A stretch of 64,000 nucleotides of DNA, taken from NCBI GenBank assembly GCA_964016885.1, contig OZ024742.1:682001-746000 (forward strand), given 5' to 3'. The stretch comes from Eledone cirrhosa. Its lineage: Eukaryota. Position numbers and translations under genes: made by a program. Shown piece after piece: positions 4,536-35,720 of the stretch (within the stretch, counting starts at the first letter, position 1; the number at the start of each line of letters is the position of its first letter). Under the pieces are notes generated by a model, which was not told the origin of the DNA, did not search any database, and worked only from the letters and a program-made list of their open reading frames with translations.

Positions 4536-4588
4536 CCATCGTGTATGATAAAACAACTAAAATAGGAGGTTGGTTGTCAGGTAATTAC

Positions 4589-6745: not shown

Positions 6746-7150
6746 AAACAGGTTGTGTGTGTGTGTGTGTGTATATATATAGAAGAGTATGCAGGTAGAG
6801 TAGTGATCTCACACAACACTTCGGGTCACATGGTACCATGGGCCCAGCACTATGTGTCAATAATGGTCACAAGTGTAGTGTTTGTACCAGAGTTTTCAAG
6901 TCGCTGGCTGGACTAAAAAGTCACACTCGTTCAGCGCATCGGTAGGGTTCTCCTACATGGATATAAAGTAGTGGCCGTACTCGAAAAACGAGTTGGCAGC
7001 CACCATATATATGTATATATATGTATATATATATCAGTATATAGAGTAGTAGTATACTTACATCAAATGTGAGTATATAGTGGGTGTGTGTGTGTATATA
7101 TATATATAGATAGATATATATATCAGTATATAGAGTAGTAGTATACTTAC

Positions 7151-12132: not shown

Positions 12133-12172
12133 AACACTTTGTCTGTATTTGGATTTTGTGCACTTGTTTTTC
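12133..12172 (-). CDS. MYO9: Myosin IX loop-2 exon: (R)KNKCTKSKYRQSV
   Basis: cttaacAG| acceptor, |GTAAGT donor, 40 nt, phase 2 in and 0 out. Resembles the basic RNKNFKSK segment recalled from Myo9a. Confidence 0.72.
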
Positions 12173-12337: not shown

Positions 12338-13475
12338 TCATCATCATCAACGTTTAACGTCCATGTTCCACGCTTGCATGGGTTTGGACGGGGGTAGTCC
12401 CACTTGAGGCAAGAGTGATTTTCTTGCTCGCATAGGACTGTCTGGCAGGTTTTCTACAGTTGGATGCCCTTCCTAACACCAACCACATTTACAGTGTGGG
12501 TCTGGGAGGTTTTTACCATGTTGCCTACACGGCCACATTACAGCGTGGACTGTGCGTTTTTTTGTCGTGACACCTACACGATCTCATTTGTTTCGGCCTG
12601 GATGGCGCGGCACCAACATAACTTTACATAGAACGGGGTGGTGTGGATGGGGTGGGGGTGGTGGTGGTGGGACGGGGTGTATTTTGTTAGAGATGCCTAC
12701 TGGCAAGGCGGGTCTTCTCTATTACTGAGTACCGCCAAAGGTCTCGGTCCAGTGACATTGTCTTGGTGAGGTGTAAGTGCGTGAGGTCGGAGTTTATCAG
12801 CTCGTCCCAGGTTTTTCTGGGTCTGCCTATTCCGTGGCTACCGTCTATCTTTATTGCCCTGCACTTTGTTATACAGCTATCATCCTTCATGCGTATCACG
12901 TGACCATACCAACGTAGCCTTCTCTCGAGTAAACAACATCTGATCCCTCTTATTTCTAATTTTTTCCTTAGTTCGTTTATGCTTTGTCGTTCACGTATAT
13001 TACTATTACACATCCAGCGGAGCATGCAAGCTTCGTTTCTCTCTAGTCTGCGTATATCCTCTGCACACAATGCCCAGGTCTCACTGCCATGCAACATTGC
13101 TGTTCGTATGCAGGCATCGTACAGCCTGCCTTTCATTTTTAGTGAGAACCCTTTAGCGGCTAATAGTGGTATAAGCTCTCTGAACTTTTTCCACCCAGTT
13201 CTGACTCTAGCTACAGTACTTTCAGAGCACCCTCCCCCACTGCTGATTTTGTCACCCAGGTAACGGAAGCTGTCCACTATTTCTATAGAACCCTCTGCGC
13301 AGTTGAAAGAGCTAGTATTTTGTGGGCACTTGCTGCTACTTATATCCCCAGAATACCGGCCACATGTAAAATCTATGTTCTTAGTTAGCTTACCTGTGAT
13401 CCCACTACATCTTTTATGCACCCAAACTTTGCATTTGGGACACAAAATGGAATTTCTACCTACGCCTTTCCTACA
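12338..13475 (-). mobile_element. 5'-truncated RTE-clade LINE: C-terminal ORF fragment (12687-13475), 3' UTR and (GAT)n tail
   Basis: Motifs FRYLGD, LYDACIRTAMLHGSETW, RRLRWYGHVIRM and GRPRKTW are typical RTE post-RT sequence. Cys/His cluster CxxCxxWVHxxC. Flanked by (TA)n on both sides. Confidence 0.93.
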
Positions 13476-13498
13476 CACATATATATATATATATATAT

Positions 13499-13533
<35 letters not shown>

Positions 13534-13536
13534 CAA

Positions 13537-13569
<33 letters not shown>

Positions 13570-13769
13570 GATAATCTATTATAGCTTTGATAGGGATGAT
13601 AAATAATTAAATATTATTGAATTTAACCATTAAGAATACTATTATAATTATTGTAAGAATATATTCTATGATATGGTACTTTTGAAAGAACTCACTTTAC
13701 GAGATTTTCTATAAATAACAACAGCATCATATTAAAAACAAATAACACCAAACATCCAATATATATATA

Positions 13770-16998: not shown

Positions 16999-17421
16999 AT
17001 TATCACTTGCTGTGTCTTCATTAAGAGCATCAGCAACTGGTAGATAACTCTCTACAGGACTGGTCAGAGGTTGACTTGTTGGCAACATGCTGCTTGTCAG
17101 GCTATGGCTGTGATGACAACTGTCTGTTGTGCCACAGCCTGTCACATCACATACTCTGCTGCCACTTGGACACAATGTTAGAGGATGAGACACACCAAAA
17201 TGGTCAGCAGTAGCAGTAGTAGCAGTAGTAGCATTAGTAGTAGCTGTAGCATTAGCAGAAGCAGTAGTGGCAGCAGCTGTAGTGGTTTGCTTGTGGTTAG
17301 TAGAGAGTGGACATGCAATACTGGTCAGCTGGTTGTTAGGCAAAGGTAGTGCTGCTCTCTCTCTGATAGTAGGAGAAGGAGGAGGACAGGAAGCAGGTCG
17401 CCATTCCCAGCATGCCGTATA
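16999..17421 (-). CDS. Candidate 423-nt low-complexity (Ser/Thr/Ala/Pro-rich) exon within the Myo9 loop-2 region
   Basis: Strong pyrimidine tract ctttctttctgttttctatatAG|, 141 open codons (YTACWEWRPASCPPPSP...EDTASDN), AAT|GTATGT donor. Phase 0/0 does not join directly to the flanking phase-2 exons. Confidence 0.4.
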
Positions 17422-17877: not shown

Positions 17878-18084
17878 GTTATAATATTTTTAACATTTAA
17901 TGTCTCATGTATTACTGTAGTCTTCTAATAAAATACAATATTTTCTACACTTTATACAATCTTTCAAATTATAACAGCCTCTTGTGACTACATCATCACT
18001 GTTGACTTTACAGAAGAAGAAAATGACAACATTGAAAGGTTGGCTGATCTCTAACAATACTTTATATGTGATATGACAGAGATC

Positions 18085-19400
18085 AGCTCTTACAACCTCC
18101 ACCCCGGTCTTCCTTGCTCTCCTACTGCAGCTTCCCTCCACTGAGATTTCTTGGTACTTCATCCAACGATCATTCATACGTATCACATGTCCATACCAGT
18201 GCAGTCTTCTCTCCAGCACACTACACCTGATTCCTCTTATACCCAGTTTCTCTCTCAGTTCATCTCTGCGTATTTGTTATCACACACTAGCATTAAAGCC
18301 CGGCGTTGCTCGGGGTCATTAAGTTACCAAAGTTAGGTTGCACCACCCATTTTATGGCAGCACTTTTTTGTCTGCCAGGCACTGGGTGAATGAATTGCAG
18401 ACCTGGAAGCATGAGCTGCGCCAGCAGTGACAATTGTAGTTTCGCCTATGGATATTATCTCTGCAAAAAAGTGTTGAAATTTATTGTTTCACAGTACTTG
18501 CGCAACACGCGCGTAGACGATGCCAGCCGAACAACAGAGCTGCGATGGAGTTGTTCTGCATGGTTGTCTGTGTGTTTTCTAAATTTAAGACAGTAGGGAG
18601 GGTTGTGATATGAGGGAGAGTTAGCTGTTGTTTCTAGCAGGTTTAGTGACCTCATAGAGGATATGTGTTTTCTAAATTTAAGACAGTAGGGAGTGGTGTG
18701 ATATGGGGGAGAGTTAGCTGCTGTTTCTAGCAGATTTAGTGACTTCATAGAAGATATGTTTTCTAAATTTAAGACAGTAGGGAGGGGTGTGATATGGGGG
18801 AGAGTTAGCTGCTGTTTCTAGCAGGTTTAGTAACCTCATAGAGGATATATGTTTTCTAAATTTAAGACAGTAGGGAGTGGTGTGGGGAGGGGTGTGTTAT
18901 GGGGGAGAGTTAGCTGCTGTTTCTAGCAGGTTTAGTAACCTCATAGAGGATATGTGTTTTCTAAATTTAAGACAGTTGGGAGTGGTGTGGACGGACAGTA
19001 TCACCATCAAGCTTGGAAAGAGAAAGTAGCAGAAAGTATGAAGTTGTATAGATTTTGAATGGTAGTAGAAAGAGTTCAGCAGTTTAAATGAGAGAGAAAA
19101 ATCGTAAAATATTGAGTTTTATCTATTTTTTTCGTAATTGTGGGTGAAATTGAAAAAATTATCTGCGTCAAGACGCAATCAAAGCTATTTTGAATACTGA
19201 ATTGTAAATTTCAATTGAAGAAATTCTATATCGTAGATTTCTATAACGAAGGAGCATGACCACACACTGAGCTTTATAGATTATGATTAACATTGCACAT
19301 CCATTGGAGTATGTTGACTTTGTTTCTCCACATCCTTCACATATCCTCTGCATTCACTGCCCACATCTCACTAACATCACACATCATACAGATCACCATT
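18085..19400 (-). pseudogene. Older RTE LINE ORF fragment split into 18085-18286 and 19281-19400 by a Helitron insertion
   Basis: The two parts translate to SEMWAVNAED / QWMCNVN and ELREKLGIRGIRCSVLERRLHWYGHVIRMND, collinear with the 12687 ORF. Confidence 0.8.
18287..19280 (-). mobile_element. Non-autonomous Helitron (994 bp) with internal ~93-105-bp tandem repeats (18571-18990)
   Basis: On the minus strand it starts A|TC and ends with a GC-rich hairpin CCCGAGC-AAC-GCCGGG, 8 nt, then CTAG|T. A/T target with no target-site duplication. Confidence 0.85.
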
Positions 19401-19677
19401 CTAACTATTACATTTTAATAATTACTAAATTGTGCTTTAATAAACTAAGGTTTATGTGAATAAATTCTAATGTTTACTAAACTGTGGTTCATTAGATTAC
19501 GGTTTAGTAAACTATGGTTTACTAAATTAAACAAAAAAGAAACCAAATGTTAAATGAAGAGAGAATAGCGAAAACAAAAGAAATACAAGACTGTCCCAAA
19601 TAAATGGTGGTTAGTGTAAATAAGATAAATTTAGAGCTTTCTGTTCTACTAAGTCAGGATTAATGATATTAACTTAC

Positions 19678-19740
19678 CTCTCTAAACTGTTCAATAATTT
19701 ATTACCCAAATTACTACAGCATGTCCTTTGTAAATCTGAC
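19678..19740 (-). CDS. MYO9: Myosin IX loop-2 exon: (R)SDLQRTCCSNLGNKLLNSLE(R)
   Basis: ttttcAG| acceptor, GAG|GTAAGT donor, 63 nt, phase 2/2, open frame. Confidence 0.7.
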
Positions 19741-20034
19741 CTGAAAATATAGAAATTATTCCTGAGCTGTGTCAAGGACATGACGACCTCCCTAGTGTTT
19801 GGTGATCTACACAACAAATACACCCAGTGCCCTCTCACTGACCACTTTACTGCATAACTGACAATATAAATGGGCTATCTACCTTGTCTACAGTCAACAA
19901 GGACATCAAATTTAACTTTCAAACCATTGATATATAGTGAGGAACCTTCATAAAACTATACAATATGATAATAGAGAGTAGGTTGGAAAGAGACAGTGGT
20001 AACAAATATGAAACTATGCCATGTGTATTTGTAT

Positions 20035-20065
<31 letters not shown>

Positions 20066-20157
20066 ACGAAGGAAATGTGGTAAGGAACCAGGTGGACCAT
20101 AACGCACCAAAGTACTCAATACTTGAGGTAGTAGAGTGGATAATAGGAACCAGTAAG

Positions 20158-20251
20158 ACCCCGACAGCTGAGCTCAAGCCGTTTCGACGGCTAATTCTGG
20201 ACTAAATGAAAATTTATCCTGGTATTTAAATAGCCGATCTTCTCAAGGGGT
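20158..20251 (-). ncRNA. Second copy of the type I hammerhead ribozyme, sense to the Myo9 pre-mRNA
   Basis: Reverse complement of 20972-21065. Confidence 0.8.
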
Positions 20252-20971
20252 AATTCGATATATGGTCAAAGTGATTGTCAAAAATCAGTAGTAATTCTGT
20301 GGTTGCAAATTAGTAGGGGAGATGGTGGCTAAACCTGCCAGTAGGAGAAAGAGGGGAGGGGTGGAGTAGCCCCAATCAAGCGTTTGTAGTGCCAGCTACA
20401 GCTGGGCATGAGGTCAAAGAAGATACAGGGGAGGGGGAGGGGGAGGAGTCGGAACGGTAGGTAGAACAATGGGGGGGGGGGGGGGGTAGAAATATATAGG
20501 AAGGAAAAATACTGAGAGTGAAGAAAAGCAAATAAGTGTAAAGAAAAACAAATGAGTGTAAAGAAAAAAGTAAAGTAAATTAAATTCTACGACCTAGGTC
20601 TCAGGCTATTGTTAGTCTAGAATAAATAAATAAATAAAGAAAGAAAGAAGTAAAGAAAGAAATAAAGAAATAACGAAATAAGTAAAAGAACTAGGTGGGA
20701 CGGAATAGGCGAGGACCCTTTTAAGAGGTATAAGTACGTAAATGATACGGTGACGGGTCAACAAAAGGGGCCAAAATACTAAAGAGACTACCCCTGTATC
20801 TTCTTTGACCTCATGCCCAGCTGTAGCTGGCACTACAAACGCTTGATTGGGGCTACTCCACCCCCTCCCCTCTTTCTCCTACTGGCATGTTTAGCCACCA
20901 TCTCCCCTACTAATTTGCAACCACAGAATTACTACTGATTTTTGACAATCACTTTGACCATATATCGAATT

Positions 20972-21065
20972 ACCCCTTGAGAAGATCGGCTATTTAAATA
21001 CCAGGATAAATTTTCATTTAGTCCAGAATTAGCCGTCGAAACGGCTTGAGCTCAGCTGTCGGGGT
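20972..21065 (+). ncRNA. Type I hammerhead ribozyme (U3-A8 core variant), predicted cleavage after GUC at 21060
   Basis: Helix I ACCCC/GGGGT; core TTGAGAA; helix II GA(T)CGGCTA/TAGCCGTC; GAA; helix III ACGGCT/AGCTGT; C17. Confidence 0.8.
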
Positions 21066-21075
21066 CTTACTGGTT

Positions 21076-21113
<38 letters not shown>

Positions 21114-21246
21114 ACTCTTTAGTTGCAACAATAAGAAGTGTGCCAATCACAACGTCCTGGGGTTTAATCCTACTTCAATATATTATCACTAGTTATTGTA
21201 TTAATGGAGAACTGTGTGGTAATTTAGTCTCAACAGGTAACCTAAT

Positions 21247-24200
21247 ATGTCACAACCTACCCCACTATATCACAACCTACCCCACTATATCACAACCTAC
21301 CCCCAAATATCACAACCTACCCCACTATATCACAACCTACCCCACTATATCACAACCTACCCCACTATGTCACAACCTACCCCACTATGTCACAACCTAC
21401 TCCACTATGTCACAACCTACCCCACTATGTCACAACCTACCCCACAAGAACACAACCTACCCCACTATTTCACAACCTAAACCACTATATCACAACCAAC
21501 CTCACTATATCACAACCTACTCCACTATATCACAACCTACCCCACTATATCACAACCTACCCTACTATATCACAACCTACCCCACTATATCACAACCTAC
21601 CCCACTATATCACAACCAACCTCACTATATCACAACCAACTCCACTATGTCACAACCTACTCCACTATGTCACAACCTACCCCACTGTCACAACCTACCC
21701 CACTATATCACAACCTACCCCACTATGTCACAACCTACCCCACTATTTCACAACCTACCCCAGTACATCACAACCTACCCCACTATATCACAACCTACCC
21801 CACTATATCACAACCTACCCCACTATGTCACAACCTACCCCACTATGTCACAACCTACTCCACTATGTCACAACCTACCCCACTATGTCACAACCTACCC
21901 CACTATATCACAACCTACCCCACTATATCACAACCAACTCCACTATGTCACAACCTACTCCACTATGTCACAACCTACCCCACTGTCACAACCTACCCCA
22001 CTATATCACAACCTACCCCACTATGTCACAACCTACCCCACAAGAACACAACCTACCCCACTATTTCACAACCTACCCCAGTACATCACAACCTACCCCA
22101 CTATATCACAACCTACCCCACTATATCACAACCTACCCCACTATGTCACAACCTACCCCACTATGTCACAACCTACTCCACTATGTCACAACCTACCCCA
22201 CTATATCACAACCTACCTCACTATATCACAACCTACCCCACTATATCACAACCTACCCCACTATATCACAACCTACCCCACTATATCACAACCTACCCCA
22301 CTATATCACAACCTACCCCACTATATCACAACCAACCTCACTATATCACAACATACTCCACTATATCACAACCTACCCCACTATTTCACAACCTACCCCA
22401 GTACATCACAACCTACCCCACTATAACACAACCTACTCCACTATATCACAACCTACCCCACTATAACAACCTACTCCACTATATCACAATCTACCCCAAG
22501 CATCACAACCTACCCCACTATTTCACAACCTACCCCACTATGTCACAACCTACCCCACTATGTCACAACCTACCCCACTATAACACAACCTACCCCACTA
22601 TAACACAACCTACCCCACTATTTCACAACCTACCCCAGTACATCACTACCTACTCCACTATATCACAACCTATCCCACTATATCACAACCTACCCCACTG
22701 TCACAACCTACCCCACTATTTCACAACCTACCCCAGTACATCACAACCTACTCCACTATATCACAACCTACCCCACCGTTACACAACCTACCCCAGTACA
22801 TCACAACCTACCCCACTATATCACAACCTACTCCAGTACATCACAACCTACCCCAGTACATCACAACCTACCCCACTATTTCACAACCTACCCCACTATG
22901 TCACAACCTACCCCACTATAACACAACCTACCCCAGTACATCACAACCTACCCCACAATAACACAACCTACCCCACTATTTCACAACCTACCCCAGTACA
23001 TCACAACCTACCCCAGTACATCACAACCTACTCCACTATATCACAACCTACCCCACCGTTACACAACCTACCCCAGTACATCACAACCTACCCCACTATA
23101 TCACAACCTACTCCAGTACATCACAACCTACCCCAGTACATCACAACCTACCCCACTATTTCACAACCTACCCCACTATGTCACAACCTACCCCACTATA
23201 ACACAACCTACCCCAGTACATCACAACCTACCCCACAATAACACAACCTACCCCACTATTTCACAACCTACCCCAGTACATCACAACCTACCCCAGTACA
23301 TCACAACCTACCCCACTATATCACAACCTACCCCACTATGTCACAACCTACCCCAGTACATCACAACCTACCCCACTATATCACAACCTACCCCACTATA
23401 TCACAACCTACCCCAGTACATCACTACCTACTCCACTATATCACAACCTACCCCAGTACATTACAACCTACCCCAGTACATCACAACCTACCGCAGTATA
23501 TCACAACCTACCCCACTATATCACAACCTACCCCACTATAACACAACCTAACACACTATTTCACAACCTACCCCAGTACATCACAACCTACCCCAGTACA
23601 TCACAACCTACCGCAGTATATCACAACCTACCCCACTATAACACAACCTACTCCACTATATCACAACCTACCCCACATTTCACAACCTAACCCAGTACAT
23701 CACAACCTACCCCAGTACATCACAACCTACCGCAGTATATCACAACCTACTCCACTATATCACAACCTACCCCACTATAACACAACCTACCCCACTATTT
23801 CACAACCTAACCCAGTACATCACAACCTACCCCACTATATCACAACATATCCCACTATATCACAACCTACCCCACTGTCACAACCTACCCCACAATAACA
23901 CAACCTACCCCACTATATCACAACCTACCACACTATTACACAACCTACCCCAGTACATCACAACCTACCCCACTATATCACAACCTACTCCAGTACATCA
24001 CAACCTACCCCAGTACATCACAACCTACCCCACTATTTCACAACCTACCCCACCTATGTCACAACCTACCCCACTATATCACAACCTACCCCACAATAAC
24101 ACAACCTACTCCATTATTTAACAACCTACCCCAGTACATCACAACCTACCCCAGTACATCACAACCTACCCCAGTACATCACAACCTACCCCAGTACATC

Positions 24201-27200
24201 ACAACCTACCCCACTATATCACAACCGACCCCACTATGTCACAACCTACCCCAGTACATCACAACCTACCCCACTATATCACAACCTACCCCACTATAAC
24301 ACAACCTAACACACTATTTCACAACCTACCCCAGTACATCACAACCTACCCCAGTACATCACTACCTACTCCACTATATCACAACCTACCCCAGTACATT
24401 ACAACCTACCCCACTATAACACAACCTAACACACTATTTCACAACCTACCCCAGTACATCACTACCTACTCCACTATATCACAACCTACCCCAGTACATC
24501 ACAACCTACCCCAGTACATCACAACCTACCGCAGTATATCACAACCTACCCCACTATATCACAACCTACCCCACTATAACACAACCTACTCCATTATTTA
24601 ACAACCTACCCCAGTATATCACAACCTACTCCACTATATCACAACCTACCCCACTATAACACAACCTAACACACTATTTCACAACCTACCCCAGTACATC
24701 ACAACCTACCCCAGTACATCACAACCTACCGCAGTATATCACAACCTACCCCACTATATCACAACCTACCCCACTATATCACAACCTACCCCACTATATC
24801 ACAACCTAACCCAGTACATCACAACCTACCCCAGTACATCACAACCTACCCCAGTACATCACAACCTACCCCAGTACATCACAACCTACCCCAGTACATC
24901 ACAACCTACCCCAGTACATCACAACCTACCCCAGTATATCACAACCTACTCCACTATATCACAACCTACCCCACTATAACACAACCTACCCCACTATTTC
25001 ACAACCTAACCCAGTACATCACAACCTACCCCACTATATCACAACCTATCCCACTATATCACAACCTACCCCACTGTCACAACCTACCCCACAATAACAC
25101 AACCTACCCCACTATATCACAACCTACTCCACTATATCACAACCTACCACACTATTACACAACCTACCCCAGTACATCACAACCTACCCCACTATATCAC
25201 AACCTACTCCAGTACATCACAACCTACCCCAGTACATCACAACCTACCCCACTATTTCACAACCTACCCCACTATATCACAACCTACTCCAGTACATCAC
25301 AACCTACCCCAGTACATCACAACCTACCCCACTATATCACAACCTACCCCACAATAACACAACCTACTCCATTATTTAACAACCTACCCCAGTACATCAC
25401 AACCTACCCCAGTACATCACAACCTACCCCAGTACATCACAACCTACCCCAATACATCACAACCTACCCCACTACATCACAACCTACCCCACTATATCAC
25501 AACCTACCCCACTATATCACAACCTACCCCACTATGTCACAACCTACCCCAGTACATCACAACCTACTCCACTATTTCACAACCTACCCCACTATGTCAC
25601 AACCTACCCCACTATATCACAACCTACCCCACAATAACACAACCTACTCCATTATTTAACAACCTACCCCAGTACATCACAACCTACCCCACTATATCAC
25701 AACCTACCCCACTATTTCACAACCTACCCCAGTACATCACAACCTACCCCACTACATCACAACCTACCCCACTATATCACAACCTACCCCACTATGTCAC
25801 AACCTACACCAGTACATCACAACCTACTCCACTATTTCACAACCTACCCCACTATGTCACAACCTACACCACTACATCACAACCTACTCCACTATTTCAC
25901 AACCTACCCCACTATGTCACAACCTACCCCACTATAACACAACCTTCCCCCACTATAACACAACCTAACACACTATTTCACAACCTACCCCAGTACATCA
26001 CAACCTACCCCACTATATCACAACCTATCCCACTATATCACAACCTACCCCACTGTCACAACCTACCCCAGTACATCACAACCTACCCCAATATGTCACA
26101 ACCTACCCACTATAACACAACCTACCCCAGTACATCACAACCTACCACACTATAACACAACCTACCCCACTATAACACAACCTAACACACTATTTCACAA
26201 CCTACCCCAGTACATCACAACCTACCCCAGTACATCACAACCTACCCCACTATATCACAACCTACCCCACTATAACACAACCTAACACACTATTTCACAA
26301 CCTACCCCAGTACATCACAACCTACCCCAGTACATCACAACCTACCGCAGTATATCACAACCTACCCCACTATAACACAACCTAACACACTATTTCACAA
26401 CCTACCCCAGTAAATCACTACCTACTCCACTATATCACAACCTAACCCCACATTTCACAACCTAACCCAGTACATCACAACCTACCCCAGTACATCACAA
26501 CCTACCCCAGTACATCACAACCTACCCCACTATATCACAACCTACCCCACTATGTCACAACCTACCCCACTATGTCACAACCTACCCCACTATAACACAA
26601 CCTATCCCACTATTTCACAACCTACCCCAGTACATCAGTACCTACTCCACTATATCACAACCTACCCCACTATTTCACAACCTACCCCAGTACATCACAA
26701 CCTACTCCACTATATCACAACCTACCCTACTATATCACAACCTACCCCACTATTTCACAACCTACCCCAGTACATCACAACCTACTCCACTATATCACAA
26801 CCTACCCTACTATATCACAACCTACCCCACTATAACACAACCTACCCCACTATTTCACAACCTACCCCACTATATCACAACCTACTCCACTATATCACAA
26901 CCTACCCCACTATAACACAACCTACCCCACTATATCACAACCTACCCCAGTACATCACAACCTACTCCACTATGTCACAACCTACCCCACTATATCACAA
27001 CCTACCCCACTATAACACAACCTACCCTACATTTCACAACCTACCCAAGTACATCACTATCTACCCCACTATTTCACAACCTACTCCACTACATCACAAC
27101 CTACCCCAGTACATCACAACCTACCCCACTATATCACAACCTACCCCAGTACATCACAACCTACCCCAGTACATCACAACCTACTCCACTATATCACAAC

Positions 27201-30200
27201 CTACCCCACTATTACACAACCTACCCCAGTACATCACAACCTACCCCAGTACATCACAGCCTACCCCACTATATCACAACCTACCCCAGTACATCACAAC
27301 CTACCCCACTTTTTCACAACCTACCCCAGTACATCACAACCTACCCTACTATATCACAACCTACCCTACTATATCACAACCTACCACAGTACATCACAAC
27401 CTACTCCACTATGTCACAACCTACCCCACTATGTCACAACCTACCCCAGTACATCACAACCTACCCCACTATATCACAACCTACTCCACTATATCACAAC
27501 CTACCCCACTATAACACAACCTACCCCACTATTTCACAACCTAACCCAGTACATCACAACCTACCCCACTATATCACAACCTACCCCACTATATCACAAC
27601 CTACCCCACTATGTCACAACCTACCCCAGTACATCACAACCTACCCCAGTACATCACTACCTACTCCACTATTTCACAACCTACCCCAGTACATCACAAC
27701 CTACCCCAGTACATCACAACCTACCGCAGTATATCACAACCTACCCCACTATATCACAACTTACCCCACTATAACACAACCTAACACACTATTTCACAAC
27801 CTACCCCAGTACATCACAACCTACCCCAGTACATCACAACCTACCCCAGTACATCACTACCTACTCCACTATTTCACAACCTACCCCAGTACATCACAAC
27901 CTACCCCAGTACATCACAACCTACCGCAGTATATCACAACCTACCCCACTATATCACAACCTACCCCACTATAACACAACCTTCTCCACTATATCACAAC
28001 CTACCCCACATTTCACAACCTAACCCAGTACATCACAACCTACCCCAGTACATCACAACCTACCCCAGTATATCACAACCTACTCCACTATATCACAACC
28101 TACCCCACTATTTCACAACCTAACCCAGTACATCACAACCTACCCCACTGTCACAACCTACCCCACTACATCACAACCTACCCCACTATATCACAACCTA
28201 CCCCACTATATCACAACCTACTCCAGTACATCACAACCTACCCCAGTACATCACAACCTACCCCACTATTTCACAACCTACCCCACAATAACACAACCTA
28301 CTCCATTATTTAACAACCTACCCCAGTACATCACAACCTACCCCAGTACATCACAACCTACCCCAGTACATCACAACCTACCCCAGTACATCACAACCTA
28401 CCCCAAAACATCACAACCTACCCCACTACATCACAACCTACCCCACTATATCACAACCTACCCCACTATATCACAACCTACCCCACTATGTCACAACCTA
28501 CCCCAGTACATCACAACCTACTCCACTATTTCACAACCTACCCCACTATGTCACAACCTACCCCACTATATCACAACCTACCCCACAATAACACAACCTA
28601 CACCATTATTTAACAACCTACCCCAGTACATCACAACCTACCCCAGTACATCACTACCTACTCCACTATATCACAACCTACCCCAGTACATCACAACCTA
28701 CCCCAGTACATCACAACCTACCCCAGTACATCACAACCTAACCCAGTACATCACAACCTACCCCAGTACATCACAACCTACCCCACTATTTCACAACCTA
28801 CCCCACTATTTCACAACCTACCCCAGTACATCACAACCTACCCCACTACATCACAACCTACCCCACTACATCACAACCTACCCCAGTACATCACAACCTA
28901 CCCCACTATTTCACAACCTACCCCACTATGTCACAACCTACACCAGTACATCACAACCTACCCCACTATAACACAACCTTCCCCCACTATATCACAACCT
29001 ACCCCACTATGTCACAACCTACCCACTATAACACAACCTACCCCAGTACATCACAACCTACCCCACTATTTCACAACCTACCCCACTATGTCACAACCTA
29101 CACCAGTACATCACAACCTACCCCACTGTCACAACCTACCCCACAATAACACAACCTACCCCACTATATCACAACCTACCCCACTATGTCACAACCTACC
29201 CACTATAACACAACCTACCCCAGTACATCACAACCTACCACACTATAACACAACCTACCCCACTATAACACAACCTAACACACTATTTCACAACCTACCC
29301 CAGTACATCACAACCTACCCCAGTACATCACAACCTACCGCAGTATATCACAACCTACCCCACTATATCACAACCTACCCCACTATAACACAACCTACCC
29401 CAGTACATCACAACCTACCCCAGTACATCACAACCTACCGCAGTATATCACAACCTACCCCACTATATCACAACCTACCCCACTATAACACAACCTACTC
29501 CACTATATCACAACCTAACCCCACATTTCACAACCTAACCCAGTACATCACAACCTACCCCAGTACATCACAACCTACCCCAGTACATCACAACCTACCC
29601 CACTATATCACAACCTACCCCACTATGTCACAACCTACCCCACTATGTCACAACCTACCCCACTATAACACAACCTATCCCACTATTTCACAACCTACCC
29701 CAGTACATCAGTACCTACTCCACTATATCACAACCTACCCCACTATTTCACAACCTACCCCAGTACATCACAACCTACTCCACTATATCACAACCTACCC
29801 TACTATATCACAACCTACCCCACTATTTCACAACCTACCCCAGTACATCACAACCTACTCCACTATATCACAACCTACCCTACTATATCACAACCTACCC
29901 CACTATAACACAACCTACCCCACTATTTCACAACCTACCCCACTATATCACAACCTACTCCACTATATCACAACCTACCCCACTATAACACAACCTACCC
30001 CACTATATCACAACCTACCCCAGTACATCACAACCTACTCCACTATGTCACAACCTACCCCACTATATCACAACCTACCCCACTATAACACAACCTACCC
30101 TACATTTCACAACCTACCCAAGTACATCACTATCTACCCCACTATTTCACAACCTACTCCACTACATCACAACCTACCCCAGTACATCACAACCTACCCC

Positions 30201-33200
30201 ACTATATCACAACCTACCCCAGTACATCACAACCTACCCCAGTACATCACAACCTACTCCACTATATCACAACCTACCCCACTATTACACAACCTACCCC
30301 AGTACATCACAACCTACCCCAGTACATCACAGCCTACCCCACTATATCACAACCTACCCCAGTACATCACAACCTACCCCACTTTTTCACAACCTACCCC
30401 AGTACATCACAACCTACCCTACTATATCACAACCTACCCTACTATATCACAACCTACCACAGTACATCACAACCTACTCCACTATGTCACAACCTACCCC
30501 ACTATGTCACAACCTACCCCAGTACATCACAACCTACCCCACTATATCACAACCTACTCCACTATATCACAACCTACCCCACTATAACACAACCTACCCC
30601 ACTATTTCACAACCTAACCCAGTACATCACAACCTACCCCACTATATCACAACCTACCCCACTATATCACAACCTACCCCACTATGTCACAACCTACCCC
30701 AGTACATCACAACCTACCCCAGTACATCACTACCTACTCCACTATTTCACAACCTACCCCAGTACATCACAACCTACCCCAGTACATCACAACCTACCGC
30801 AGTATATCACAACCTACCCCACTATATCACAACTTACCCCACTATAACACAACCTAACACACTATTTCACAACCTACCCCAGTACATCACAACCTACCCC
30901 AGTACATCACAACCTACCCCAGTACATCACTACCTACTCCACTATTTCACAACCTACCCCAGTACATCACAACCTACCCCAGTACATCACAACCTACCGC
31001 AGTATATCACAACCTACCCCACTATATCACAACCTACCCCACTATAACACAACCTTCTCCACTATATCACAACCTACCCCACATTTCACAACCTAACCCA
31101 GTACATCACAACCTACCCCAGTACATCACAACCTACCCCAGTATATCACAACCTACTCCACTATATCACAACCTACCCCACTATTTCACAACCTAACCCA
31201 GTACATCACAACCTACCCCACTGTCACAACCTACCCCACTACATCACAACCTACCCCACTATATCACAACCTACCCCACTATATCACAACCTACTCCAGT
31301 ACATCACAACCTACCCCAGTACATCACAACCTACCCCACTATTTCACAACCTACCCCACAATAACACAACCTACTCCATTATTTAACAACCTACCCCAGT
31401 ACATCACAACCTACCCCAGTACATCACAACCTACCCCAGTACATCACAACCTACCCCAGTACATCACAACCTACCCCAAAACATCACAACCTACCCCACT
31501 ACATCACAACCTACCCCACTATATCACAACCTACCCCACTATATCACAACCTACCCCACTATGTCACAACCTACCCCAGTACATCACAACCTACTCCACT
31601 ATTTCACAACCTACCCCACTATGTCACAACCTACCCCACTATATCACAACCTACCCCACAATAACACAACCTACACCATTATTTAACAACCTACCCCAGT
31701 ACATCACAACCTACCCCAGTACATCACTACCTACTCCACTATATCACAACCTACCCCAGTACATCACAACCTACCCCAGTACATCACAACCTACCCCAGT
31801 ACATCACAACCTAACCCAGTACATCACAACCTACCCCAGTACATCACAACCTACCCCACTATTTCACAACCTACCCCACTATTTCACAACCTACCCCAGT
31901 ACATCACAACCTACCCCACTACATCACAACCTACCCCACTACATCACAACCTACCCCAGTACATCACAACCTACCCCACTATTTCACAACCTACCCCACT
32001 ATGTCACAACCTACACCAGTACATCACAACCTACCCCACTATAACACAACCTTCCCCCACTATATCACAACCTACCCCACTATGTCACAACCTACCCACT
32101 ATAACACAACCTACCCCAGTACATCACAACCTACCCCACTATTTCACAACCTACCCCACTATGTCACAACCTACACCAGTACATCACAACCTACCCCACT
32201 GTCACAACCTACCCCACAATAACACAACCTACCCCACTATATCACAACCTACCCCACTATGTCACAACCTACCCACTATAACACAACCTACCCCAGTACA
32301 TCACAACCTACCACACTATAACACAACCTACCCCACTATAACACAACCTAACACACTATTTCACAACCTACCCCAGTACATCACAACCTACCCCAGTACA
32401 TCACAACCTACCGCAGTATATCACAACCTACCCCACTATATCACAACCTACCCCACTATAACACAACCTACCCCAGTACATCACAACCTACCCCAGTACA
32501 TCACAACCTACCGCAGTATATCACAACCTACCCCACTATATCACAACCTACCCCACTATAACACAACCTACTCCACTATATCACAACCTAACCCCACATT
32601 TCACAACCTACCCCAGTACATCACAACCTACCCCAGTACATCACAACCTACCCCAGTACATCACAACCTACCCCACTATATCACAACCTACCCCACTATG
32701 TCACAACCTACCCCACTATAACACAACCTATCCCACTATTTCACAACCTACCCCAGTACATCAGTACCTACTCCACTATATCACAACCTACCCCACTATT
32801 TCACAACCTACCCCAGTACATCACAACCTACTCCACTATATCACAACCTACCCTACTATATCACAACCTACCCCACTATAACACAACCTACCCCACTATT
32901 TCACAACCTACCCCACTATATCACAACCTACTCCACTATATCACAACCTACCCCACTATAACACAACCTACCCCACTATATCACAACCTACCCCAATACA
33001 TCACAACCTACTCCACTATGTCACAACCTACCCCACTATATCACAACCTACCCTACTATAACACAACCTAACACACTATTTCACAACCTACCCCACTATA
33101 ACACAACCTACCCTACATTTCACAACCTACCCAAGTACATCACTATCTACCCCACTATTTCACAACCTACTCCACTACATCACAACCTACCCCGGTATAT

Positions 33201-34470
33201 GACAACCTACTCCACTATATCACAACCTACCCCACTATTACACAACCTACCCCAGTACATCACAACCTACCCCAGTACATCACAGCCTACCCCACTATAT
33301 CACAACCTACCCCAGTACATCACAACCTACCCCACTTTTTCACAACCTACCCTACTATATCACAACCTACTCCACTATGTCACAACCTACCCCAGTACAT
33401 CCCAACCTACCCCAGTACATCACAACCTACCCCACTATATCACAACCTACCCCAGTACATCACAACCTACCCCACTATAACACAACCTACCCCAGTACAT
33501 CACAACCTACCCCAGTACATCACAACCTACCCCACTATATCACAACCTACCCCAGTACATCACAACCTACCCCGGTACATCACAACCTACCCCACTATAT
33601 CACAACCTACCACAGTACATCACAACCTACCCCACTATATCACAACCTACCCCAGTACATCACAACCTACCCCACTATTTCACAACCTACTCCACTATGT
33701 CACAACCTACCCCACTATGTCACAACCTACCCCACTATAACACAACCTACCCCAGTACATCACAACCTACCCCACTATATCACAACCTACCCCACAATAA
33801 CACAACCTACTCCACTATTTCACAACCTACCCCAGTACATCACAACCTACCCCACTATATCACAACCTACCCCACTATTTCACAACCTACCCCAGTACAT
33901 CACAACCTACCCCACTATATCACAACCTACCCCAGTACATCACAACCTACCCCACTATGTCACAACCTACCCCACTATAACACAACCTACCGCACTATAT
34001 CACAACCTACCCCAGTACATCCCAACCTACCCCAGTACATCACAACCTACCCCACTATAACACAACCTACCCCACTATATCACAACCTACCCCAGTACAT
34101 CACAACCTACCCCACTATGTCACAACCTACCCCACTATAACACAACCTACCCCAAATATCACAACTTACCCCACTATAACACAAGCTACCCCACTATATC
34201 ACAACCTACCCCAGTACATCACAACCTACCCCACTATAACACAACCTACCCCAGTACATCACAACCTACCCCACTATAACACAACCTACCCCAGTACATC
34301 ACAACCTACCCCACTATAACACAACCTACCCCACTATAACACAACCTACCCCAGTACATCACAACCTACCCCACTATAACACAACCTACCCCACTATAAC
34401 ACAACCTACCCCAGTACATCACAACCTACCCCACTATAACACAACCTACCCCAGTACATCACAACCTACC
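21247..34470. repeat. 20-bp minisatellite, about 13.2 kb and 660 units, with a 3073-bp higher-order duplication
   Basis: Unit TCACAACCTACCCCA(CTATA/GTACA). Identical ORFs at 27411/30484 and 28928/32001 are 3073 bp apart. Confidence 0.98.
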
Positions 34471-34548
34471 TCAATAAATGATCACTGGTTAATTTGCAAC
34501 TTTCTCGGTGAGATGTATCATTTGTTATCTTTGGAGGTTTCTTAGATT
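34470..34548 (-). CDS. MYO9: Myosin IX loop-2 exon: KSKKPPKITNDTSHRESCKLTSDHLL(R)
   Basis: Poly-T tract then ggcAG| acceptor, GAG|GTAGGT donor, 79 nt. Phase 1 in and phase 2 out match both neighbouring exons with no stop. Confidence 0.75.
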
Positions 34549-34764
34549 CTGCCAGAAAAAAAACAAAACAATTGTGAGTAAACAATCCTTAACAATAATA
34601 AATTTAAAAATCTTGAAATAAACTATAATTAACATTCTTTGTGATTAGTTAATAGAACAATTAACATTATTAATTAATAATTAACAATAATTTTAATAAA
34701 TTAATTTTTCTAGTACATGATAAACAATGTTCCATAATTTATGTTTAACTTATTCTTTAGAATT

Positions 34765-34900
34765 GGTTGGCAGCAGCAAATTGGTAGAATTGTTAAAACA
34801 TCAGAATGTTTTATAGTGTATGTTCCAGCTCTCTGTTCTCTCAGTTCAAATTCTGCCAAGGTCAATAAAAGGGTACCAGTCCAATACTAAGGTCAATTCT
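34765..34900 (+). mobile_element. Degenerate SINE fragment of the same family as 36035-36245
   Basis: GGCAGCAGCAAATTGGTAGAAT...AGTTCAAATTCTGCCAAGGTCAATAAAAGGGTACCAGTC. Confidence 0.6.
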
Positions 34901-35090: not shown

Positions 35091-35192
35091 TTCCATTTGC
35101 CTGGTATTCTTTACCAGCAGAAATAAAGGCCGCAACACATCTGAAGAATGCTCTTAGCAATCCCCACCGTAAAATAGCGACTGGATCAACTC
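35091..35192 (-). CDS. MYO9: Myosin IX exon, start of the loop-2 insert: (G)VDPVAILRWGLLRAFFRCVAAFISAGKEYQANG
   Basis: Minus strand tatttcAG|GA...GGAA|GTgagt, 102 nt, open frame. The peptide resembles the class IX motif recalled from vertebrate Myo9a (GIDPVAVFRWAILRAFFRAM). Confidence 0.92.
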
Positions 35193-35195
35193 CTG

Positions 35196-35720
35196 AAATA
35201 TACATACATTATATAGGTTATATTCCATAAATATATATACATTACACAGGTTATATTCCATAAATATATATACATTACACAGGTTATATTTCATAAATAT
35301 ATATATGGAGGCACATGGCTTAGTGGTTAGAGCATTAGCCTTGCAATCGAAAGGTTGTGAGTTCAATTCTCAGACCGGGTATGTGTTGTTTCCTTGAGCA
35401 AGAGACTTTATTTCACATTGCTCCAGTTTACTCAGCTGTAGATATGAGATGATAGGGACCCCATTCCACTGCAAAGCACCCAGCACTCACTGTAAATGAG
35501 GTTGGTGTTAGGAAGGGCATCCAGCTGTAGAAATCATGCCAGAATCAGTTCCCGTCCCACCCTTGCAAGCAGGGAAAAGTGGACGTAAAATGAATGATAT
35601 ACATTACACAGGTTATATTTCATAAATATATATACATTACACAGGTTATATTTCATAAATATACATACATTACACATGTTATATTCCATAAATATATATA
35701 CATACATATTTCATAATATA
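35196..35720. repeat. ~38-bp AT-rich minisatellite abutting the exon acceptor and split by a SINE
   Basis: ATATACATTACACAGGTTATATT(C/T)CATAAAT units at 35198-35306 and 35597-35720. Confidence 0.85.
35307..35598 (+). mobile_element. Full-length tRNA-derived SINE with CORE-like body and RTE-derived 3' tail
   Basis: A box TGGCTTAGTGG (35316), B box GAGTTCAATTC (35359), TCCTTGAGCAAG core. The tail GTTGGTGTTAGGAAGGGCATCC...TGGACGT matches the LINE 3' end. Confidence 0.9.

What the first reader, a model, noticed from the sequence alone, without database searches (positions are those of the whole stretch)
21247..34475. 13-kb intronic array reiterating the exon's own 5' splice site about 660 times
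Seen: in pre-mRNA sense the predicted exon ends TTATTGAG|GTAGGTTGTGATGTACTGGG, and this intron-initial 20-mer is the satellite unit. Most units therefore supply GGG|GTAGGT, and one variant near 22211-22220 restores GAG|GTAGGT. Established: G|GUAGGU pairs well with U1 snRNA. Inference: the donor site itself seeded or was captured by the array. That would create hundreds of competing donors, which could act as a U1 sink, allow stepwise intron removal, or make exon inclusion depend on array length.
Basis: partly seen in the sequence, partly recalled or inferred. Interest (0 to 1): 0.72.

Follow-up and report, generated by a model that had tools for sequence, protein, structure and literature searches.

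The report
Octopod myosin-IX donor-repeat minisatellite
In an octopus-type myosin-IX gene, the 20 bases that open one intron are repeated about 660 times over 13 kb, yet the one spliced transcript recovered uses only the first splice signal, so this is likely a tolerated, very large example of a repeat accident already known from human and lancelet genes.

Summary
A 20-bp array (21246-34470, 663 units) starts at the donor of a 79-nt exon of an octopod Myo9 gene; 620 units keep GT and 471 read GGG|GTAGGT. The exon is real: it is conserved in three octopods, and one spliced contig joins 34470 to 19740 with no added base, using the first donor. That is the only productive choice: skipping shifts the frame, and any internal donor brings in a TAG at intron +2..+4. 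The unit occurs only here, so it likely arose in place by slippage rather than by capture. No support was found for stepwise removal (no acceptor-like sites) or a U1 sink. A length effect or leaky use of nearby copies was not testable. The arrangement is known from human F7, 6-16, CBS, LMNB2 and PDGF (5-25 copies) and from amphioxus 'mirages'. This scan found it before at other loci of the same genome (up to about 1,900 copies); I confirmed one. The same gene carries larger arrays (44 and 146 kb) that do not start at a donor. Verdict: new, large member of a known kind; low interest.

The parts
21246..34469 (-). 20-bp minisatellite, 663 units, filling about 90% of a 14,729-nt intron; G-rich on the transcript strand
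34470..34548 (-). 79-nt Myo9 exon (phase 1 to phase 2; SKKPP...DHLLR), whose donor is the array's first unit
   Evidence: spliced contig
34461..34472 (-). authentic 5' splice site GAG|GTAGGTTGT; in-frame TAG at intron +2..+4 (34468-34466)
35091..35192 (-). upstream 102-nt Myo9 exon (VDPVAILRWGLLRAFF...)
   Evidence: joint 34548/35091
19678..19740 (-). 63-nt downstream exon (SDLQRTCC...), skipped in one O. bimaculoides isoform, included in the contig seen here
17000..17421 (-). approximate large alternative exon (about 140 aa), present in most O. bimaculoides isoforms, skipped in the contig seen here
12133..12172 (-). next exon (KNKCTKSKYRQSV), to which the contig joins 19678; 3' end approximate
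   Evidence: loose-end letters match 12171 onward
22211..22219 (-). the single internal unit that matches the authentic 9-mer GAG|GTAGGT
21238..21247 (-). distal short repeat TATTAGGTTA, 7 of 10 identical to TATTGAGGTA across the donor (34476-34467); candidate slippage microhomology

Best explanation
This is a single-locus 20-bp minisatellite whose first unit is the start of a Myo9 intron, likely born by slippage across the splice donor, and the cell likely ignores the roughly 660 copies and splices at the first, exon-adjacent donor. Shown: the array, its register with the donor, its restriction to this locus, the exon's conservation, one transcript using the first donor, and a stop codon in every alternative product. 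Inferred: birth by slippage or unequal crossover between two imperfect 10-bp repeats 20 bases apart (Haber-Louis model), growth by further unequal exchange (an exact 3,073-bp internal duplication fits this), choice of the first donor through exon definition and upstream-first selection as in human F7, and removal of any leak to nearby copies by nonsense-mediated decay.
For: Exon and junction LLR|SDLQ or LLR|KNK are present in all 15 full-length octopod proteins retrieved (13 O. bimaculoides, 1 O. vulgaris, 1 Argonauta). One 404-nt contig of run X4 lies on 35091-35165, 34468-34548 and 19677-19742, so record base 250 = 19740 and 251 = 34470 with no insertion. Only the first donor gives an open frame; skipping and internal donors 1-6 all hit stops, the latter at intron +2..+4. 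A 30-nt pattern has 242 hits in the genome and 242 in the window; a looser one has 517, of which 499 are in the window, and the 18 others are fewer than the 45 of the reversed control. The exon's last 11 nt match the unit's 3' half at 7 of 11 (empirical p 0.009, or 0.03 conditioned on a final G). The authentic donor outscores 659 of 662 internal sites if the unlisted variants, which lose GT or a consensus base, score lower (scores, counts). Precedent: F7, LMNB2 and PDGF use only the authentic site (PMC1557585, introduction and discussion read); amphioxus mirages do not disturb splicing (PMC3087553, passages). The pattern recurs here: a second donor of this gene is duplicated 89 nt downstream, and a 22-bp donor-bearing array of about 115 copies follows a RIO1-family exon on C23.
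Against: RNA evidence is one contig at depth 3 from one run whose type is not on record; contigs drop rare variants, and products of internal donors would be decay targets, so their use is not excluded. Predicted U1 pairing of the common copy is almost equal to the real donor, and three GGG|GTAAGT copies score above it on the generic matrix (6.5 versus 6.1). In 6-16 and CBS two proximal pseudo-sites are used. With a stricter variant-aware test the exon-end similarity is not significant (p 0.07-0.12). No orthologous intron DNA could be examined, so the ancestral state is inferred. 0 of 79 sampled kinesin and kinase donors overlap a repeat, so the arrangement is uncommon per donor.
Confidence: 0.8

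Rival explanations
1. The array modulates splicing in cis: longer alleles leak to nearby donors (feeding decay and lowering Myo9) or shift inclusion of the 63-nt and roughly 420-nt cassette exons downstream, as the ABCA7 intron-18 VNTR does for exon 19.
For: The donor feeds at least three alternative exon chains in relatives. Copies are predicted to bind U1 almost as well as the real site. ABCA7 VNTR length correlates with lower expression and exon 19 skipping (PMC11095487, passages); 6-16 and CBS use two proximal pseudo-sites.
Against: The one contig uses the first donor. The chain seen here (63-nt exon in, large exon out) is the same as in O. vulgaris, Argonauta and one O. bimaculoides isoform. 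No allele or expression data.
Confidence: 0.11
2. The intron is removed stepwise through sites inside the array (recursive or nested splicing).
For: Each unit holds TAG followed by GT, and 620 of 663 units keep a GT donor.
Against: No acceptor context: at most 10 of 20 pyrimidines before any AG (mean 7.5), 330 C in 13.2 kb, 10 CAG and 3 YTRAY-type branch motifs. Splicing an internal donor to 19740 leaves array sequence and a stop in the exon. Introns of about 148 kb and over 44 kb in this gene are filled with arrays that do not start at a donor.
Confidence: 0.03
3. The array is kept as a U1 platform: a sink, or a local shield against premature cleavage in a very long gene.
For: About 520 G|GTAGGT sites per transcript. 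U1 pairing to nascent RNA suppresses premature cleavage (PMC6946686, passages).
Against: U1 is the most abundant small nuclear RNP in vertebrates; about 10^6 copies per cell is my recalled figure, against some hundreds of sites on a few nascent copies. The array has 0 AATAAA or ATTAAA to shield. Donor retention is flat at 74-88% along the array, with no sign of selection on distant copies.
Confidence: 0.03
4. A mobile or multi-locus satellite inserted at the exon end and happened to supply the donor.
For: Internal units differ from the exon end at -2 and elsewhere.
Against: No excess of the unit elsewhere in the assembly; both ends fade into the flanks in register. The searches need exact matches, so diverged relatives could be missed.
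Confidence: 0.03
5. The copy number is inflated by assembly error.
For: An exact internal duplication at lag 3,073 bp; the gene's two halves lie in opposite orientation on this contig.
Against: DNA contigs of runs X1 and X3 bridge the exon and the first units (34441-34850) and show summed depth hundreds of times the unique depth over the units (not a copy number, and possibly the assembly's own sample). Removing the block would still leave about 510 units.
Confidence: 0.1

Closest known systems
Human F7 IVS7 37-bp VNTR, with 6-16 (25 pseudo-sites), CBS intron 13 (15-20), LAMIN B2 (10-15) and PDGF intron 4 (16-18) (PMC1557585; abstract, introduction and discussion read)
   Same: Minisatellite whose first unit holds the authentic donor, so donors are reiterated into the intron; the most upstream site is used.
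   Different: About 660 units over 13 kb rather than 5-25. Copies are not identical to the authentic site (A to G at -2 in most). Every alternative product has an immediate stop. Invertebrate host; silence of the copies is not shown at depth.
Amphioxus 'mirage' minisatellites in Adh3 and globins BflGb6 and BflGb9 (PMC3087553; passages read)
   Same: Tandem repeats at an exon-intron boundary carrying splice signals, with normal splicing; homogenised interior and divergent ends.
   Different: Mirages carry a clear exonic part and few units (3-6 in BflGb6); here the exonic part is at most 7-11 degenerate bases and the array is about 100 times longer in units.
ABCA7 intron 18 VNTR (PMC11095487; passages read)
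   Same: Intronic minisatellite of similar unit size that can exceed 10 kb, upstream of a skippable exon.
   Different: ABCA7 has a measured length effect on expression and exon 19 skipping; none is shown here. The passages read do not say that it reiterates a donor.
Haber-Louis minisatellite origin model (seen second-hand in PMC6947457, passages)
   Same: Short 5-10-bp repeats flank the amplified motif; here two imperfect 10-mers bound the array.
   Different: The match is 7 of 10 and the ancestral sequence was not observed.

Membership tests
Donor-spanning minisatellite (F7 IVS7 / 6-16 / CBS type; amphioxus mirage) | First unit contains the authentic donor of a real exon | tested here: met
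   Array starts at 34469-34470; exon conserved and spliced there
Donor-spanning minisatellite (F7 IVS7 / 6-16 / CBS type; amphioxus mirage) | Donor motif reiterated in following units | tested here: met
   620 of 663 keep GT, 519 G|GTAGGT; 1 internal copy has the identical 9-mer
Donor-spanning minisatellite (F7 IVS7 / 6-16 / CBS type; amphioxus mirage) | Unit includes exon-derived bases | tested here: inconclusive
   7 of 11 match; p 0.009-0.03 against consensus, 0.07-0.12 variant-aware
Donor-spanning minisatellite (F7 IVS7 / 6-16 / CBS type; amphioxus mirage) | Authentic upstream donor is used | tested here: met
   One contig, depth 3, joins 34470 to 19740 exactly
Donor-spanning minisatellite (F7 IVS7 / 6-16 / CBS type; amphioxus mirage) | Pseudo-sites silent, or only the nearest used | tested here: inconclusive
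   No alternative joint seen, but contigs drop rare variants and products would be decay targets
Donor-spanning minisatellite (F7 IVS7 / 6-16 / CBS type; amphioxus mirage) | Length polymorphism among individuals | not testable with these tools
   The one RAD run laid (X5) had no cover on the exon or array
Recursive splicing ratchet points | AG|GT with an upstream pyrimidine tract and branch point (definition recalled) | tested here: not met
   At most 10 of 20 pyrimidines before any AG; 10 CAG; 3 branch-type motifs
Multi-locus satellite DNA family | Related arrays at other loci | tested here: not met
   242 of 242 and 499 of 517 pattern hits lie in this array; remainder below the reversed control of 45; exact-match search
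Splicing-modulating VNTR (ABCA7 type) | Array length correlates with isoform ratio or expression | not testable with these tools
   No matched allele and RNA data

The most novel reading that the evidence does not exclude
Octopod genomes carry many giant donor-reiterating arrays, and at Myo9 the allele length tunes the motor's insert region, by leak to decay-bound proximal donors or by shifting inclusion of the two cassette exons downstream, making repeat length a heritable splicing dial at a scale far beyond the human cases.
Probability: 0.1. Interest if true: 0.55.

Novelty: new member of a known kind. Interest (0 to 1): 0.2.

Why it matters
If the best reading holds, it extends upstream-first donor choice from 5-25 competing copies in mammals to hundreds in a mollusc, and shows that an intact gene tolerates 13 kb of near-cognate U1 sites. 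That is a useful natural test case for 5' splice-site selection and a caution for annotating octopod genes, not a new mechanism. It would matter more if allele length proved to change Myo9 isoforms.

Tried and rejected
The run search listed no holder on record as RNA; X4 was taken as RNA only because its contig is spliced. X4 has no contig on the first array units; a hole in contigs proves nothing, so this is not counted. I laid 4 of 7 listed runs and 1 of 7; the RAD run X5 gave no cover of the exon or array. No relative genome is held, so the orthologous intron start was not seen. Base-rate survey: 140 kinesin and kinase loci; a donor was called in 79 and 61 were dropped (intronless matches, domain ends or weak sites); 0 of 79 overlap a repeat, 9 of 79 have a repeat of 100 bp or more starting within 100 nt, and 2 of 79 have distant look-alikes 362-625 nt away. 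A check on all 140 without donor calls listed 7 rows (5 loci) near a 3' match end, none reiterating a donor by eye. Donor calls use a generic recalled matrix and are approximate. A 458-codon stop-free frame on the + strand at 21050-22426 is a by-product of the C-rich strand and was rejected as a gene. PMC10078293 (passages) had nothing on reiterated donors. A search for a U1 copy number returned no paper. Searches listed no title or abstract opening on donor-reiterating arrays in octopods; subscription papers and supplements were not seen.
Full report
Setting. The window is G000:C3:682001-746000 in a 3.0-Gb assembly. A 50-aa exon hits myosin-IX of Octopus bimaculoides, O. vulgaris and Argonauta at 94%, so the host is an octopod and the gene, on the minus strand, is Myo9. 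The exons in question lie in the motor-domain insert of class IX myosins (loop 2; this label is recalled).

Observation. TRF finds one array at 21246-34470, period 20, 662.8 copies. It begins at the GT after the exon end TTATTGAG. Of 663 phased units, 620 keep GT, 519 read G|GTAGGT, 471 GGG|GTAGGT, 75 GGA|GTAGGT, 3 GGG|GTAAGT and 2 GAG|GTAGGT, namely the real site and 22219-22211. The copies are near-copies: most differ from the real site at -2. Predicted U1 duplex energies are -10.4 (authentic) and -10.0 kcal/mol (common copy); a generic matrix gives 6.1 and 4.6 bits, the 71st and 43rd percentiles of 79 donors sampled from this genome.

The exon is real and uses the first donor. Exons 35192-35091, 34548-34470 and 19740-19678 give an open frame only through the first donor. 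Skipping the 79-nt exon shifts the frame, and any downstream donor reads AG|G TAG, a stop at intron +2..+4 (internal donors 1-6 translated, and the stop precedes all others). All 15 full-length octopod proteins retrieved contain the exon and join LLR to SDLQ (14) or to KNK (1). In run X4 (type not on record, another sample of the same study) one 404-nt contig at depth 3 lies on 35091-35165, 34468-34548 and 19677-19742; record base 250 is 19740 and 251 is 34470, so the 14,729-nt intron is removed with no array base kept. Its loose end continues into the exon at 12172, skipping the large exon near 17421-17000. It does not exclude minor use of internal donors, because contigs drop rare variants and such products would likely be degraded.

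Origin. A 30-nt pattern of the unit has 242 matches in the genome and 242 in the window. A looser pattern has 517, 499 of them in the window; the other 18 are fewer than the 45 of the reversed control. The repeat is therefore local, which favours birth in place over capture. The ends carry imperfect 10-mers in register, TATTGAGGTA across the donor and TATTAGGTTA at the far end, against internal TAGTGGGGTA. This fits the Haber-Louis slippage model (seen second-hand in PMC6947457, passages). The exon's last 11 bases match the unit's 3' half at 7 of 11, which is weakly significant (p 0.009-0.03 against consensus; 0.07-0.12 variant-aware). An exact internal duplication at lag 3,073 bp points to recent unequal exchange or to an assembly error. 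The ancestral intron could not be seen.

How unusual is the position? Repeats with period 10 or more cover 12% of exon-flanking DNA in 140 sampled loci. Of 79 donors called (61 loci dropped), 0 overlap a repeat and 9 have one starting within 100 nt. That is roughly 0.1% per base, so an array end within 10 nt of a donor would be expected at very roughly 1-2% of donors; 0 of 79 bounds it below about 4%. This is my extrapolation. In Myo9, 2 of 25 donors called are reiterated: this one, and the donor at 7150, copied 89 nt downstream. Earlier AI notes list several such arrays in this genome, up to about 1,900 copies. I checked one: a 2.5-kb array of the 22-mer ACCATTCCATCAATGGTATGTC, about 115 copies, follows a RIO1-family exon on C23 and repeats its AATG|GTATGTC donor. 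The same Myo9 gene holds a 43.6-kb 48-mer array and a 146-kb 34-mer array that do not start at donors. Giant intronic arrays are thus normal here, and some start at a donor.

The proposed functions. Stepwise removal needs internal acceptors. The array has at most 10 pyrimidines in the 20 bases before any AG, 330 C in 13.2 kb, 10 CAG and 3 branch-type motifs, so only the first dozen or so copies could be paired with the upstream acceptor by exon definition (about 300-nt limit, recalled). A U1 sink is unlikely: U1 is the most abundant small nuclear RNP in vertebrates (PMC6946686, passages; about 10^6 per cell is recalled), against some hundreds of sites on a few nascent transcripts. The array has no AATAAA or ATTAAA for U1 to shield, and donor retention is flat along it. 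A length effect on the downstream cassette exons remains open and has a precedent in ABCA7 (PMC11095487, passages); however, the chain seen here matches that of O. vulgaris, Argonauta and one O. bimaculoides isoform.

Comparison with what is known. Borensztajn et al. 2006 (PMC1557585; abstract, introduction and discussion read) describe exactly this class: F7, 6-16, CBS, LAMIN B2 and PDGF, with 5-25 copies. Only the authentic site is used in three of them and two extra proximal sites in the other two; F7 mutants show that the most upstream functional site wins. Amphioxus mirages behave alike (PMC3087553, passages). The present array works like these and meets the testable defining features, with the exonic share of the unit and the silence of the copies inconclusive. 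It differs in size and in having weakened, stop-bearing copies. Searches listed no octopod report; papers outside the library and supplements were not seen.

Verdict. Observation confirmed; interpretation partly supported. Most likely a tolerated, locally born donor-spanning minisatellite with first-donor splicing (0.8). New member of a known kind, not the largest in its own genome according to earlier unreviewed notes; interest 0.2.

Noticed in passing
window 7150 and 7061 (minus strand): A second Myo9 donor (ctcacgtttgat|GTAAGT) is duplicated with about 13 exonic bases 89 nt downstream: a two-copy version of the same accident.
   Followed up: partly
window 36741 to G000:C3:865232: A 34-bp array of about 146 kb fills the roughly 148-kb intron upstream of exon 35192; both flanking exons match the orthologous protein.
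   Followed up: partly
G000:C3:642917 to window 4543: A 48-bp array of 43.6 kb (914 copies) starts about 45 nt after the donor at 4588.
   Followed up: no
G000:C3:1665681-1798149 versus 640524-1201001: Myo9 tail exons (aa 1210-1987) lie on the + strand while head exons lie on the - strand; a 200-N gap sits about 51 kb below the window. Probably a mis-oriented scaffold piece.
   Followed up: no
inside 21246-34470: Exact internal duplication at lag 3,073 bp: recent unequal crossover or assembly error.
   Followed up: partly
window 35196-35305: A 33-bp repeat (3.3 copies) runs up to the acceptor of exon 35192, with a second cluster at 35597-35703.
   Followed up: no
window 20138-21080: About 300 bases occur twice in inverted orientation between (TA)n runs, resembling a small DNA element inserted at a TA repeat (read by eye).
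   Followed up: no
window 12687-13613 and 17905-18276: Open frames resembling the C-terminal part of a non-LTR retrotransposon protein (label recalled).
   Followed up: no
   Followed up: partly
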